Assembly: GCF_009914755.1 (NCBI RefSeq)
Contig: NC_060946.1
Origin: the human T2T-CHM13v2.0 reference genome, Homo sapiens
Direction: 5' to 3' (one strand)
DNA length: 64,000 nt
The notes under the pieces are model-generated. The model was not told where the DNA came from. It did no database searches and saw only the letters and a program-made list of their open reading frames with translations. Of this stretch, positions 9,751 to 32,490 are shown one piece after another. The position numbers and the translations under genes are program-made. Position 1 is the first letter of the stretch; the number at the start of each line of letters is the position of its first letter.

Positions 9751-10764
9751 ATGGGGAAAAAAAAGAGCAGAAGAACTGGAAACTCTAAAAATTAGAGTGC
9801 CTCTCCTCCTTCAAAGGAACGCAGCTCCTCACCAGTAACGGAACAAAGCTGGATGGAGAATGACTTTGACGAGTTGAGAGAAGAAGTTTTCACACGATTG
9901 GTAATAACAAACTTCTCTGAACTAAAGGAGGATGTTCGAAGAAAAGAAGCTAAAAACCTTGAGAAAAGATTGGATGAATGGCTAACTAGAATAAACAGTG
10001 TAGAGAAGACCTTAAATGACCTGATGGAGCTGAAAACCATGGCATGAGAACTACGTGACACATACACAAGCTTCAGCAGCCGACTCAATCAAGTGGAAGA
10101 AAGGGTATCAGTGATGGAAGAGCGAATGAATGAAATGAAGCAAGAAGAGAAGTTCAGAGAAAAAAAGTAAAAAGCAAGGACAACAGCCTCCAAGAAATAT
10201 GGGACTATGAGAAAAGACCAAATCTACGTCTGATTGGTGTACCTGAAAGTGACTGAGAGAATGCAAACAAGTTGGAAACCACTCTGCAGGATATTTTCCA
10301 GGAGAACTTCCCCAACCTAGCAAGGCAGGCCAACATTCAAATTCAGGAAATACACAGAACGCCACAAAGATACGCCTTGACAAGAGCAACTCCAAGACAC
10401 ATATTGTCAGATTTACCAAAGTTGAAACGAAGGAAAAAATGCTAAGGGCAGCCAGAGAGAAAGGTCGGGTTATCCACAAAGGAAGCCCATCAGACTAACA
10501 GCTGATCTCAGGACAGAAACTCTACAAGCCAGAAAAGAGTGGGGGCCAATATTCAATATTCTTAAAAGAATTTTCAACCCAGAATTTCATATCCAGCCAA
10601 ACTAAGCTTCATTAAGTGAAGGAGAAATAAAATCCTTTACAGACAAGCGAATGCTGAGAGATTTTGTCACCAGCAGGCCTGCCTTACAAGAGCTCCTGAA
10701 GGAAGCACTAAACATGGAAAGGAACAACCGGTACCAACCACTGCAAAAATATGCCAAATTGTAA
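9751..10764 (+). pseudogene. L1 ORF1p, disrupted (copy A)
   Basis: ATG GGG AAA start; MENDFDELREE...LKTMA fragment; premature TGA at 10045 and several frameshifts. Confidence 0.93.
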
Positions 10765-10827
10765 AGACCATTGATGCTAGGAAGAAACTGCATCAACTAA
10801 CGGGCAAAATAACCAGCTAACATCATA

Positions 10828-28666: not shown

Positions 28667-31600
28667 ATGACAGGATCAAATTCACACATAACAATATTAA
28701 CCTTAAATGTAAATGGGTTAAATGCTCCAATTAAAAGACACAGACTGGCAAATTGGATAAAGAGTCAAGACCCATCAGTGTGCTGTATTCAGGAGACCCA
28801 TCTCACATGCAGACACACACATAGGCTCAAAATAAAGGGATGGAGGAAGATCTACCAAGCAAATGGAAAACAAAAAAAGCAGAGGTTACAATCCTAGTCT
28901 CTGATAAAACAGACTTTAAATAAACAAGGATCAAAAGAGACAAAGAAGGCCATTACATATTGCTAAAGGGATCAATTCAACAAGAAGACCTAACTATCCT
29001 AAATATATATGCACCCAATACAGGAGCACCCAGATTCATAAAGCAAGTCCTTAGAGACCTACAAAGAGACTTAGATTCCAAACAATAATAATGAGAGACT
29101 TTAACACCCCACTGTCAACATTAGACAGATCAACGAGACAGAAAGTTAAAAAGGATATCCACGACTTGAACTCAACTCTGGACCAAGCAGACCTAATAGA
29201 CATCTACAGAACTCTCCACCCCAAATCAACAGAATATACATTCTTCTCAGCACCATATCGCACTTATTCCAAAATTGACCACATAGTTGGAAATAAAGCA
29301 CTCCTCAGCAAATGTAAAGAACAGAAATTATAACAAACTCTCAGACCACAGTGCAATCAAATTAGAACTCAGGATTAAGAAACTCACTCAAAACCGCTCA
29401 ACTATATGGAAACTGAACAACGTGCTCCTCAATGACTACTGGGTACATAACGAAATGAAGGCAGAAATAAAGATGTTCTTTGAAACCAATGAGAACAAAG
29501 ACACAACATGCCAGAATCTCTGGGACACATTTAAAGCAGTGCATAGAGGGAAATTTATAGCACTAAATGCCCACAAGAGAAAGCAGGAAAGTTCTAAAAT
29601 TGACACCTGAACATCACAATTAAAAGAACTGGAGAAGCAAGAGCAAACACATTCAAAAGCTAACAGAAGGCAAGAAATAACTAAGATCAGAGCAGAACTG
29701 AAGGAGATAGAGACACAAAAAACCCTTCAAAAAATCAAGGAATCCAGGAGCTGGTTTTTTGAAAAGATCAACAAAATTGAGAGACCGCTAGCAAGACTAA
29801 TAAAGAAGAAAAGAGAGAAGAGTCAAATAGATGCAATAAAAAAATGATAAAGGGGATATCACCACCGATCCCACAGAAATACAAACTACCATCAGAGAAT
29901 ACCAGAAACACCTCTACGGAAATAAACTAGAAAATCTAGAAGAAATGGATAAATTCCTCAACAAATACACCCACCCAAGACTAAAACAAGATAAGAAGTT
30001 GAATCCCTGAATAGACCAATAACAGGCTCTGAAATTGAGGCAATAATTAATAGCCTACCAATCAAAAAATCTCCAGGACCAGATGGATTCACAGCCTAAT
30101 TCTACCAGAGGTACAAAGAGGAGTTGGTACCATGCCTTCTGAAACTATTCCAATCAATAGGAAAAGAGGGAATCCTCCCTAACTCATTTTATGAGGCCAG
30201 CATCATCCTGATACCAAAGCCTGGGAGAGATACAACAAAGAGAATTTTAGACCAATATCCCTGGTGAACAACGATGCAAAAATCCTCAATAAAATACTGG
30301 CAAACCGAATCCAGCAGCACATCAAAAAGCTTATCCACCACGATCAAGCTGGCTTCATCCCTGGGATGCAAGGCTGGTTCAACATACACAAATCAATAAA
30401 CGTAAGCCATCATATAAACAGAACCAAAGACAAAAACCACATGATTATCTCAATAGATGCAGAAAAGGCCTTTGACAAAATTCAACAGCCCTTCATGCTA
30501 AAAAAAACTTTCAATAAACTAGGTATTCATGGGACATATCTCAAAATCATAAGAGCTATTTATGACAAACCCACAGCCAATATCATACTGAATGGACAAA
30601 AACTGGAAGCATTCCCTTTGAAAACTGGCGCAAGACAGGGACGCCCTCTCTCACCATTCCTATTCAACATAGTGTTGGAAGTTCTGGCTAGGGCAGTCAG
30701 GGAAGAGAAAGAAATAAAGGGCATTCGATTAGGAAAAGAGGAAGTCAAATCGTCCCTGTTTGCAGATGACATGATTGTATATTTAGAAAACCCCATCGTC
30801 TCAGCCCAAGATCTCCTCAAGCTGATAAGCAACTTTAACAAAGTCTCAGGATACAAAATCGATGTGCAAAAATCACAAGCCTTCCTATACACCCATAACA
30901 GACAAACAGAGAGCCAAATCATGAGTGAACTCCCATTCACAATTGCTTCAAAGAGAATAAAATACCTAGGAATCCAACTTACAAGGGATGTGAAGGACCT
31001 CTTCAAGGAGAACTACAAACCACTGCTCAACAAAATAAAAGAGGTCACAAACAAATGGAAGAACATTCCATGCTCCGGGATAGGAAGAATCAATATCATG
31101 AAAATGGCCATACTGCTCAAGGTAATTTATAGATTCAGTGCCATCTCCATTAAGCTACCAATGACTTTCTTCACAGAATTGGAAAAAACTACTTTAAAGT
31201 TCATATGGAACCAAAAAAGAGCCCGCATTGCCAAGTCAATCCTAAGCCAAAAGAACAAAGCTGGAGGCATCACGCTACCCGACTTCAAACTATAGTACAA
31301 GGCTACAGTAATCAAAACAGCACGATACTGGTACCAAAACAGAGATATAGACCAATGGAACAGAACAGAGCCCTCAGAAATAATGCCGCATATCTACAAC
31401 CATCTGATCTTTGACAAAACTGACAAAAACAAGAAATGGGGAAAGGATTCCCTATTTAATAAATGGTGCTGGGAAAACTGGCTAGCCATATGTAGAAAGC
31501 TGAAACTGGATCCCTTCCTTATACCTTATACAAAAATTAATTCAAGATGGGATAAAAGACTTAAATGTTAGACCTAAAACCATAAAAACCCTAGAAGAAA

Positions 31601-32490
31601 ACCTAGGCAATACCATTCAGGACATAGGCATGGCCAAGGACTTCATGTCTAAAACACCAAAAGCAATGGCAACAAAAGTCAAAATTGACAAATGGGATCT
31701 AATTAAACCAAAGAGCTTCTGCACAGCAAAAGAAACTACCATCAGAGTGAACAGGCAACCTACAGAAAGGGAGAAAATTTTTACAATCTACTCATCTAAC
31801 AAAGGGCGAATATCCAGAATCTACAAAGAACTTAAACAAATTTCCAAGAAAAAATCAAACAACCTCATCAAAAAGTGGGTGAAGGATATGAACAGACACA
31901 TCTCAAAAGAAGACATTTATGCAGCCAACAGTTACATGAAAAATTGCTCATCATCAATGGCCATCAAAGAAATGCAAATCAAAACCACAATGAGATACCA
32001 TCTCACACCAGTTAGAATGGCAAACATTAAAAAGCCAGGAAACAACAGATGCTGGAGAGGATGTGGAGAAATAGGAACACTTTTACACTGTTGGTGGGAC
32101 TGTAAACTAGTTCAACCATTTTGGAAGACAGTGTGGTGATTTCCCAAGGATCTAGAACTAGAAATACCATTTGATCCAGCAATCCCATTACTTGGTCTAT
32201 ACCCAAAGGATTATAAATCATGCTGCTATAAAGACACATGCACACGTATGTTTATTGTGGCACTATTCACAATAGCAAAGACTTGGAACCAACCCAAATG
32301 TCCATCAAGGATAGAATGGATTAAGAAAATGTGGCACATATATACCATGGAATACTATGCAGCCATAAAAAAGGATGAGTTCACGTCCTTCGTAGGGACA
32401 TGCATGAAGCTGGAAGCCGTCATTCTAAGCAAACTAAAGCAAGGACAGAAAACCAAACACCACATGTTCTCACTAATAGGTGGGAACTGA
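28667..32490 (+). pseudogene. L1 ORF2p, disrupted (copy B)
   Basis: MTGSNSHITILTLNVNGLN start; RT fragment 30264-31295 with LFADD; ends MFSLIGGN; many lesions. Confidence 0.95.

What the first reader, a model, noticed from the sequence alone, without database searches (positions are those of the whole stretch)
9900..31663. Two independently inserted L1s of different subfamilies with homogenised interiors (concerted evolution / ectopic gene conversion)
Seen: copy A (TSD agaaattacacagttctt, inside an old L1M) and copy B (TSD agaagactgg, inside a MIR3) have unrelated flanks. Their 5'UTRs differ clearly (cagctggagatc vs gagtttgagatc; aaagaaaggggtaacag vs aagggaagccgtgacag), and so do their 3'UTRs (tgctaaatg/aactaacc/cctaaaac vs tgtaaatg/aacaaacc/cctagatc). 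Even so, 11880-13341 and 29717-31178 (1462 bp, offset 17837) show no mismatch by eye, and the ORF track gives an identical 343-aa translation. The copies also share disabling lesions: an ORF1 deletion gttcgaa|gaaaag (9934/27774), a TGA stop (10045/27885), cttaaaagaa (10561/28401), acaaactctcag (~11495/29332), gacacctga (11771/29608), acaacaaagag (~12395/30232) and atgggataaaagac (~13710/31547). Established: L1 mobilises with cis preference, so two insertions are not expected to share many ORF1 and ORF2 killing mutations, and independent L1PA4/5 copies differ by several percent. Inference: sequence was exchanged between the two loci after insertion.
Basis: partly seen in the sequence, partly recalled or inferred. 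Interest (0 to 1): 0.9.

Follow-up and report, generated by a model that had tools for sequence, protein, structure and literature searches.

The report
Gene conversion between two neighbouring L1s
Two dead L1 retrotransposons that landed separately 17.8 kb apart in a TTC28 intron have since had parts of one copied over the other, a clear but ordinary example of gene conversion between neighbouring repeats.

Summary
Copy A (8742-14863) and copy B (26599-32711) are near-full-length, same-strand L1s. Each has its own perfect target-site duplication, and their flanks are unrelated. They are 94% identical overall, but the identity is mosaic: about 86% in the 5'UTR and ORF1 start, about 92% at the 3' end, 97-98% in 9899-10534 and 11321-11879, and exactly 100% over 11880-13341 (1462 bp) and 13600-13826.

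Exchange after insertion is well supported:
- Genome-wide, the next best L1 is at most 91-94% identical in these tracts.
- The tracts hold 93 shared rare substitutions (33.6/kb, against 2.4/kb outside them) and 11 of the 12 shared indels.
- Trees put A and B in different subfamily clades at both ends, but as sisters inside B's clade in the interior.

B was therefore the donor and A the recipient. At least two events are needed: an older one (1.6% divergence since) and a very recent one (0 differences in 1462 bp).

The interior is patchy. 10251-10370, 10535-11320 and 13342-13599 look unconverted.

This is a new instance of a known process, non-allelic gene conversion between dispersed repeats. 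An assembly or cell-line origin of the identical block, and the ape and human population states, could not be tested here.

The parts
8724..8741 (+). Left target-site duplication of copy A (18 bp)
   Evidence: Identical 18-mer at 14864-14881, read.
8742..14863 (+). L1 copy A, near full length, both ORFs broken. It is the recipient of the conversions. Its ends belong to the 'A-type' subfamily.
   Evidence: blastn against B. Pfam Transposase_22, Exo_endo_phos (below its cut-off) and RVT_1 on ORF pieces. ORF2p match to 8c8j/8uw3, E about 1e-272. Many stops. 5' and 3' trees.
14864..14881 (+). Right target-site duplication of copy A
26589..26598 (+). Left target-site duplication of copy B (10 bp)
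   Evidence: Identical 10-mer at 32712-32721.
26599..32711 (+). L1 copy B, near full length, both ORFs broken. It is the inferred donor and is 'B-type' throughout.
   Evidence: It sits in the B-type clade at the 5' end (100/99) and at the 3' end (97/87; sister of L051, 96/91).
32712..32721 (+). Right target-site duplication of copy B
9899..10250 (+). Converted tract T1 in A (partner B 27739-28091), ORF1. Older event.
   Evidence: 15 shared rare substitutions against 6 differences. 18 of 22 diagnostic sites are B-type in both copies, 2 A-type in both, 2 neither. A+B are sisters (100/100) inside the B-type clade (97/93). The partner is 97% identical and the next best genomic copy 91%.
10251..10370 (+). 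Unconverted island
   Evidence: 0 shared rare sites and 9 differences in 120 bp.
10371..10534 (+). Converted tract T1b (partner B 28211-28374)
   Evidence: 9 shared rare substitutions, 1 difference, and shared 1-bp deletions near 10403 and 10482.
10535..11320 (+). Stretch at background similarity: ORF1 end, spacer and endonuclease part of ORF2. Apparently unconverted, or converted very long ago.
   Evidence: A-B identity is 94%, tied with many unrelated copies. 3 shared rare sites against 45 differences. The AU test does not decide (p 0.52). It does contain the shared 4-bp deletion near 10565.
11321..11879 (+). Converted tract T2 (partner B 29158-29716). Older event.
   Evidence: 16 shared rare substitutions and 10 differences. 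Shared deletions near 11480 and 11501. The partner is 98% identical and the next best copy 94%.
11880..13341 (+). Identical block (partner B 29717-31178), 1462 bp, covering the reverse-transcriptase domain. Most recent event.
   Evidence: Exact identity. 50 shared rare substitutions and 4 shared indels. The next best genomic copy is 93% identical. Both copies lie on the B-type side of a 98/90 branch. RVT_1 spans about 12400-13143.
13342..13599 (+). Gap without signs of recent conversion
   Evidence: 0 shared rare sites and 9 differences. Both copies carry A-type alleles at 3 of 4 diagnostic sites; this is unresolved.
13600..13826 (+). Converted tract T3 (partner B 31437-31663), 227 bp identical
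   Evidence: 0 differences, 3 shared rare substitutions, and a shared 1-bp insertion at 13712 found in 0 of 53 panel copies. Its run of 142 concordant polymorphic sites exceeds the 99.9th percentile (135) of the permutations.
13827..14863 (+). Unconverted 3' end of A (ORF2 C-terminus, 3'UTR, poly-A)
   Evidence: 82 substitution differences and 3 shared rare sites. B is absent from A's 40 listed matches and A from B's. The AU test rejects an A+B clade (p 0.019).

Best explanation
Two L1 elements of different subfamilies inserted independently, in the same orientation, 17.8 kb apart in an intron of TTC28. Both decayed.

Later, homologous-recombination repair used copy B as a template without a crossover. 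This is non-allelic (interlocus) gene conversion. It overwrote parts of copy A from mid-ORF1 to about four fifths of the way through ORF2, carrying B's subfamily alleles and B's private mutations, stops and frameshifts into A.

This happened at least twice:
- One or more older, patchy events covered 9899-10250, 10371-10534 and 11321-11879. These tracts now differ by 1.6% between the copies.
- A very recent event covered 11880-13341 and probably 13600-13826, which show no difference.

What is shown: the independent insertions, the mosaic identity, the shared private variants, the switch of tree position, and the absence of other genomic copies carrying these variants.

What is inferred: the repair mechanism, the direction B to A, the number of events, and their dates.
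For: 1. Independent insertions. Each copy has its own perfect target-site duplication and the flanks are unrelated.

2. The ends differ as unrelated copies do. A's 3' kilobase and B's 3' kilobase each list 39 other matches at 88-94%; the two lists share no place, and neither lists the other copy (40 of 11,307 and 13,745 candidates scored). In trees, A falls with the A-type panel and B with the B-type panel at the 5' end (99/98 and 100/99) and at the 3' end (97/87). The AU test rejects an A+B clade at the 3' end (p 0.019).

3. In the interior tracts the partner is far closer than any other genomic copy: 100% against 93%, 97% against 91%, 98% against 94%.

4. Shared rare substitutions (allele in at most 10% of 53 other copies) number 93 in 2764 bp of tracts and 8 in 3358 bp elsewhere. 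Eleven of the 12 shared indels lie in the tracts. None lies in the 5' 1.1 kb or the 3' 1 kb, where all 7 indels are private.

5. In T1+T1b, A and B are sisters (100/100) on a shared branch of 0.056 inside the B-type clade. In the block they are identical, on a shared branch of 0.044, on the B-type side of a 98/90 split. That length is like B's own terminal branch at the 3' end (0.048).

6. Diagnostic sites. A is A-type and B is B-type at 23 of 25 clean sites in 8880-9805 and 13 of 14 in 13990-14830. Both are B-type at 18 of 22 sites in 9899-10167 and 13 of 14 in the block.

7. Permutation test: 0 of 10,000 shuffles reach the observed run.

8. Two ages. All 17 substitution differences within the converted tracts fall outside the block. 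My arithmetic gives (1302/2764)^17, about 3e-6. In T2 the differences sit 1-6 bp from shared rare sites, and 4 of the 10 are at CpG sites. That fits new mutations better than patchy repair.
Against: No reads, no second human assembly and no ape orthologues could be examined. The 100% block could therefore still be an assembly or polishing effect, or private to this cell line or haplotype.

Direction rests on a panel chosen by similarity: 20 copies by A's 3' end, 5 by B's 5' end, and 28 by the block itself. In the block 1 of 14 sites, and in 9899-10167 2 of 22 sites, are A-type in both copies.

Some features do not fit a simple B-to-A picture:
- Sites 10684/10687 show the reverse pattern.
- Copy B carries A-type alleles at 13399, 13548, 13554 and 13955.
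- The shared 4-bp deletion near 10565 lies in a stretch that otherwise looks unconverted.
- A is the more diverged copy in 10535-11320, but B is at the 3' end.

The genome searches score only 40 of several thousand candidates per query.
Confidence: 0.85

Rival explanations
1. The 1462-bp identical block, and perhaps 13600-13826, is an artefact of assembly or polishing, or a somatic or cell-line event in the sequenced line. On this view it is not an inherited human state, and only the older tracts are real germline conversions.
For: Zero differences, even at the 14 remaining CpG sites of the block, is the pattern a consensus artefact would give.
Against: The block is flanked on both sides by tracts that already show real, older conversion, with shared rare variants plus later private mutations. 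The pair is therefore a proven conversion substrate. The block sits within 6-kb elements with unique flanks, which long reads span; this point rests on general knowledge and was not tested here.
Confidence: 0.07
2. One conversion event with patchy mismatch repair. On this view the 17 differences in T1, T1b and T2, and the unconverted islands, are original differences left unrepaired, not later mutations.
For: The tracts are interrupted by islands (10251-10370, 13342-13599), which discontinuous repair can produce.
Against: In T2, differences and shared rare sites interleave at 1-6 bp (for example 11585/11587/11593 and 11705/11706). That would require a dozen or more switches in 559 bp. Four of the 10 T2 differences are CpG-type. 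All 17 differences avoid the 1462-bp block (about 3e-6, my arithmetic).
Confidence: 0.08
3. The direction is the reverse: A was the donor and B the recipient in the main tracts.
For: The shared rare variants alone do not say in which copy they arose. A few diagnostic sites in the tracts are A-type in both copies: 9999, 10116, 12122, 12247 and 12636.
Against: 18 of 22 diagnostic sites in 9899-10167 and 13 of 14 in the block are B-type in both copies. A+B nest in the B-type clade in both tracts (97/93 and 98/90), while A's two ends are A-type.
Confidence: 0.05
4. Both copies descend from one defective progenitor, a trans-mobilised sub-lineage. On this view the shared lesions were inherited at insertion.
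For: Shared stops and frameshifts would follow from a common broken source.
Against: One source cannot give different 5' and 3' ends. No other genomic copy comes closer than 91-94% in the tracts. The shared indels occur in 0-3 of 43-53 other copies. Two old insertions would have diverged by about 8%, as the unconverted stretches have, not by 0-1.8%.
Confidence: 0.01
5. Segmental duplication of one L1, or a crossover (unequal exchange) product, rather than non-crossover conversion.
For: Direct repeats 17.8 kb apart are a classic substrate for unequal crossing over.
Against: The flanks are unrelated. Each element keeps a matched pair of target-site duplications and its own subfamily at both ends. 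A crossover would have broken that pairing.
Confidence: 0.01

Closest known systems
Non-allelic gene conversion between neighbouring Alu elements. This is reviewed by Fawcett & Innan 2019 (PMC6598467; I read parts 1-2 of 4), who cite Kass 1995, Roy 2000 and Aleshin & Zhi 2010.
   Same: Independently inserted retroelement copies of different subfamilies become mosaic for diagnostic mutations. According to the review, the rate rises for copies less than 10 kb apart and with higher identity.
   Different: Here the elements are 6-kb L1s 17.8 kb apart. The tracts are kilobase-scale, nested in age and interrupted. The parts of the review that I read give no human L1 example.
Conversion between L1PA3 LINEs seen in long reads of one human cell line (Frith & Khan 2018, PMC5829575; passages found by term search; figure not seen).
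   Same: Replacement of a tract in one L1PA by a copy from a nearby similar L1PA, attributed to homologous recombination.
   Different: That case is a read-versus-reference variant in younger elements. This one is read from a single assembly, lies between different subfamilies, and records at least two events. The paper's main text contains no 'chr22'; its figure and supplements were not seen, so whether the loci coincide is unknown.
[quoted passage not shown] I saw it only as a reference and a one-line mention in PMC1920257; the paper itself is not held.
   Same: It gives an experimental mechanism by which one LINE copies sequence from another without a crossover.
   Different: That system is somatic and experimental, in mouse, with donors anywhere in the genome. 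Here the donor is a germline-fixed neighbour on the same chromosome.
Interlocus gene conversion between duplicated genes, for example HBG1/HBG2 (passages in PMC5829575) or RCCX (passages in PMC13419748).
   Same: Tracts of identity bounded by diverged sequence, shared derived variants, and repeated events that keep paralogues alike (concerted evolution).
   Different: Those paralogues arose by duplication of one locus. Here the two partners arose by two separate retrotranspositions from different subfamilies, and both are non-functional.

Membership tests
Non-allelic (interlocus) gene conversion between dispersed repeats | The partners are separate loci of independent origin | tested here: met
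   Two different perfect target-site duplications and unrelated flanks.
Non-allelic (interlocus) gene conversion between dispersed repeats | Tract(s) of raised identity bounded by background divergence, beyond chance | tested here: met
   Identity is 100% and 97-98% in the tracts, against 86-94% outside. 0 of 10,000 permutations reach the observed run. The longest exact run in 1378 control pairs is 223 bp, against 1462 bp here.
Non-allelic (interlocus) gene conversion between dispersed repeats | Shared derived variants inside the tracts that other family members lack | tested here: met
   93 shared rare substitutions in the tracts against 8 outside. 11 of 12 shared indels lie in the tracts. 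The next best genomic copies are 91-94% identical.
Non-allelic (interlocus) gene conversion between dispersed repeats | Tree position changes between segments | tested here: met
   A is A-type at both ends and sister to B, inside B-type, in T1 and the block. The AU test rejects an A+B clade at the 3' end (p 0.019).
Non-allelic (interlocus) gene conversion between dispersed repeats | No exchange of flanking markers (non-crossover) | tested here: met
   Each element keeps its matched target-site duplications and its own subfamily at both ends.
Non-allelic (interlocus) gene conversion between dispersed repeats | The pre-conversion state is seen in an outgroup species or in other haplotypes | not testable with these tools
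   No ape genomes, second human assembly or reads are on hand.
Full-length primate L1 (LINE-1) element | 5'UTR, ORF1, ORF2 with endonuclease and reverse transcriptase, 3'UTR with A-rich tail, and target-site duplication | tested here: met
   Pfam Transposase_22 (E 1e-11) and RVT_1 (E 3e-40); Exo_endo_phos scores below its cut-off. ORF2p structures 8c8j/8uw3 match at E about 1e-272. A-rich tails and duplications appear. Thousands of genomic relatives were found.
   No Dfam or RepeatMasker library is on hand. What is shown is only that the two ends belong to two different clades of genomic copies.
Segmental duplication or unequal-crossover product | Homology extends into the flanks, or target-site duplications are mismatched | tested here: not met
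   The flanks are unrelated and both pairs of duplications are intact.

The most novel reading that the evidence does not exclude
The pair is an active concerted-evolution couple. After a first conversion between sequences only about 92-93% alike created kilobase-long near-identity, further conversion became easy.

The last event, with 0 differences in 1462 bp, falls within roughly the last million years. It would then be specific to the human lineage and possibly still polymorphic, or private to this haplotype.

The resulting 1.46 kb of perfect direct repeat would also make the 17.8-kb interval prone to recurrent deletion or duplication in the TTC28 intron.
Probability: 0.4. Interest if true: 0.5.

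Novelty: new member of a known kind. Interest (0 to 1): 0.4.

Why it matters
- It is a clean, datable example showing that old, dead L1 copies do not always evolve independently after insertion. Copy A would be mis-aged and mis-assigned to a subfamily by any method that reads its interior.
- Shared inactivating mutations in two L1s need not mean a shared source element.
- The nested tracts, one with 1.6% divergence and one with none, offer a natural measure of conversion rate, tract length and patchiness between repeats 17.8 kb apart.
- The long perfect repeat is a plausible substrate for structural variation in TTC28.
- None of this changes how L1 or gene conversion is understood.

Tried and rejected
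- Third-party donor for A's highly diverged stretch 10535-11320. A genome search found no copy above 94%, and B is merely tied with many others. Rejected.
- Recombination-hotspot motif. The 13-mer CCNCCNTNNCCNC has 5 matches in the window, all at 39466-63656, and none in or between the two L1s. It gives no lead.
- Tree of 10535-11320. It has no starred branches, and the AU test does not decide whether A+B form a clade (p 0.52).
- Simple percent identity to A-type and B-type copies does not tell the types apart in ORF2 (92-93% to both). Diagnostic sites and trees were needed.
Only 5 full-length B-type copies were obtained. The B-side set was then enlarged to 17 using the 3' tree split.
- Literature. 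Searches for L1-L1 gene conversion gave a review of conversion between transposable elements, one L1PA3 example, and passing mentions.
- A search for TTC28, gene conversion and L1PA required at least 2 of the 3 terms. It listed 10 of 71 papers, and none of the 10 holds TTC28 together with 'gene conversion'. That is not proof the locus is undescribed.
- Myers 2002 and Tremblay 2000 are not held. Supplementary figures of PMC5829575 were not seen.

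
Full report
**What is there.** The window holds two near-full-length L1 elements on the + strand, 17.8 kb apart, inside a TTC28 intron (hub annotation). They are antisense to the gene.
- Copy A is 8742-14863. Its 18-bp target-site duplication AGAAATTACACAGTTCTT lies at 8724-8741 and 14864-14881.
- Copy B is 26599-32711. Its 10-bp duplication AGAAGACTGG lies at 26589-26598 and 32712-32721.
- Two kb of flank on each side of A share nothing with B's flanks except one 115-bp, 76%, inverted hit.
- Both elements are riddled with stops and frameshifts.
- ORF pieces match the L1 ORF1 RNA-binding domain and reverse transcriptase, and match endonuclease below its cut-off. The longest open piece aligns to solved human ORF2p structures at E about 1e-272.

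**The observation.** blastn gives 93.97% identity over 6137 columns, but the identity is strongly mosaic:

| Region (A coordinates) | A-B identity |
|---|---|
| 5'UTR | 85.9% |
| First part of ORF1 | 86.7% |
| 9900-10250 | 98.3% |
| 10251-10370 | 92.4% |
| 10371-10534 | 99.4% |
| 10535-11320 | 94.3% |
| 11321-11879 | 98.2% |
| 11880-13341 | 100% |
| 13342-13599 | 96.5% |
| 13600-13826 | 100% |
| 13827 onward | 92.2%, then 91.7% |

- The 1462-bp block is exact and is bounded by a mismatch on each side.
- The identical translation is 366 codons long, not 343.

**Is it more than chance?**
- Among 1378 pairs of other L1 copies the longest exact run is 223 bp. A against any other copy reaches 150 bp.
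- I permuted 3677 polymorphic columns 10,000 times. The longest A-B concordant run then had a mean of 68 and a maximum of 151 sites, against 923 observed.
- The second observed run, 142 sites at 13600-13826, also exceeds the 99.9th percentile of 135.

**Comparison panel.** The window's own assembly can be searched. I collected 53 other L1 copies:
- 28 found with the block;
- the 20 best matches of A's 3' kilobase;
- 5 full-length copies taken from the first 5 matches of B's 5' 1.1 kb plus one lower-ranked match that also lies among B's 3' matches.

Each genome search scored only 40 of about 4,700-13,700 candidates.

**Evidence that sequence moved after insertion.**
- *Nearest neighbours.* At the 3' kilobase, A and B each list 39 other matches at 88-94%; the two lists share no place, and neither lists the other copy. 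In the tracts the partner is far ahead of every other copy: 100% against 93%, 97% against 91%, 98% against 94%. In 10535-11320, B is only tied with many copies at 94%.
- *Shared rare substitutions.* These are alleles present in at most 10% of the panel. They number 15, 9, 16, 50 and 3 in 9899-10250, 10371-10534, 11321-11879, the block and 13600-13826. That is 93 in 2764 bp. Elsewhere there are 8 in 3358 bp.
- *Indels.* Twelve indels are shared by A and B, all lying between 9899 and 13712. Eleven lie in the tracts and most occur in 0-3 of 43-53 other copies. The 5' 1.1 kb and the 3' 1 kb have only private indels.
- *Trees.* At the 5' end A sits with A-type copies and B with B-type copies (99/98 and 100/99). 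The 3' end gives the same split (97/87), and the AU test rejects an A+B clade there (p 0.019). In 9899-10534, A and B are sisters (100/100) on a shared branch of 0.056 inside the B-type clade (97/93). In the block they are identical, on a shared branch of 0.044, on the B-type side of a 98/90 split. The panel copies fall on the same sides in the block and 3' trees, so the two subfamilies are real and it is copy A that changes sides.

**Direction.**
- At sites that separate the two panel types, A is A-type and B is B-type at both ends: 23 of 25 clean sites in 8880-9805 and 13 of 14 in 13990-14830.
- Both copies are B-type at 18 of 22 sites in 9899-10167, at 3 of 4 in 11321-11879 (11409-11695; at 11869 each copy keeps its own type), and at 13 of 14 in the block.
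- The shared branch in the block (0.044) matches B's own terminal branch at the 3' end (0.048).
- I infer that B was the donor and A the recipient.

**Number and age of events.**
- The three older tracts hold 17 substitution differences in 1075 bp (1.6%). The block and 13600-13826 hold none.
- If the tracts were all one age, the chance that all 17 differences miss the block is about 3e-6. This is my arithmetic, (1302/2764)^17.
- In 11321-11879 the differences lie 1-6 bp from shared rare sites, and 4 of the 10 are CpG-type. They look like mutations that arose after an older conversion, not like unrepaired patches.
- With recalled rates of 1.0-1.7e-9 per site per year, the older tracts date to roughly 5-8 million years. 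The 95% bound for the block is roughly 0.6-1 million years. These dates are inference.

**What does not fit neatly.**
- Three stretches look unconverted: 10251-10370, 10535-11320 and 13342-13599.
- The second of these nevertheless contains a shared 4-bp deletion near 10565.
- It also contains two sites, 10684/10687, where A has the main B-type state and B has the other state.
- Copy B carries A-type alleles at 13399, 13548, 13554 and 13955. No B-side copy has all four. This could be a very old exchange in the other direction or an intermediate subfamily.
- A is the more diverged copy in 10535-11320, but B is the more diverged at the 3' end.

**Rivals.**
- A common defective progenitor, a segmental duplication and a crossover product are each contradicted. 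The evidence is the differing ends, the intact pairs of target-site duplications, the unrelated flanks, and the lack of other copies carrying the variants.
- A single event with patchy repair is unlikely, for the reasons given above.
- An assembly, polishing or cell-line origin of the 100% block cannot be tested here. The older tracts are not open to that objection.

**Known or new.**
- Non-allelic gene conversion between dispersed repeats is established. It is reviewed for Alu and LTR elements in PMC6598467 (parts 1-2 of 4 read).
- A conversion between L1PA3 LINEs was seen in long reads (PMC5829575, passages).
- An intrachromosomal conversion into an L1 locus is mentioned in PMC1920257 (passages).
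- Among the 10 papers listed of 71, none couples TTC28 with gene conversion.
- This locus is therefore a new and unusually clear member of a known kind. It does not point to a new mechanism.

Noticed in passing
window 26275-27474: The RefSeq 'enhancer' in the hub annotation overlaps the first roughly 875 bp (5'UTR) of L1 copy B, which starts at 26599.
   Followed up: no
window 10684 and 10687 (B 28523, 28526): The diagnostic pattern is reversed here. Copy A has the main B-type state. Copy B has the state shared with A-type copies and with three B-side copies (L015, L051, L052).
   Followed up: partly
window 13399, 13548, 13554, 13955 (B 31236, 31385, 31391, 31792): Copy B carries A-type alleles at four sites where 14-15 of 17 B-side copies differ, and no B-side copy has all four. 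This may be a very old exchange from A to B, or B may come from an intermediate subfamily.
   Followed up: partly
window 10565 (B 28405): A shared 4-bp deletion (also in 1 of 29 other copies) lies inside a stretch that otherwise behaves as unconverted. It is either a parallel deletion in an A-rich run or a remnant of an older tract.
   Followed up: partly
G000:C22:28991533-28993527 (outside the window, about 348 kb downstream of its start): Another L1 in the same gene is among the 40 scored hits of both tract queries, at 91% and 94% identity. That is no closer than other copies.
   Followed up: no
window 39466-63656: The hotspot-like 13-mer CCNCCNTNNCCNC occurs 5 times, against 0.67 expected. 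All matches lie outside the L1 pair.
   Followed up: no
window 19666-19930, 36640-36904, 42486-42750, 45834-46098; 45845-46130 / 51793-52078: A 265-nt direct-repeat family (67-85% identical) and a 286-nt inverted pair (84%) look like short interspersed elements. Their family was not checked.
   Followed up: no
window 10535-11320 versus 13827-14863: The ratio of private rare sites flips between regions. A has 27 and B has 14 in 10535-11320, but A has 17 and B has 40 at the 3' end. This is unexplained.
   Followed up: no
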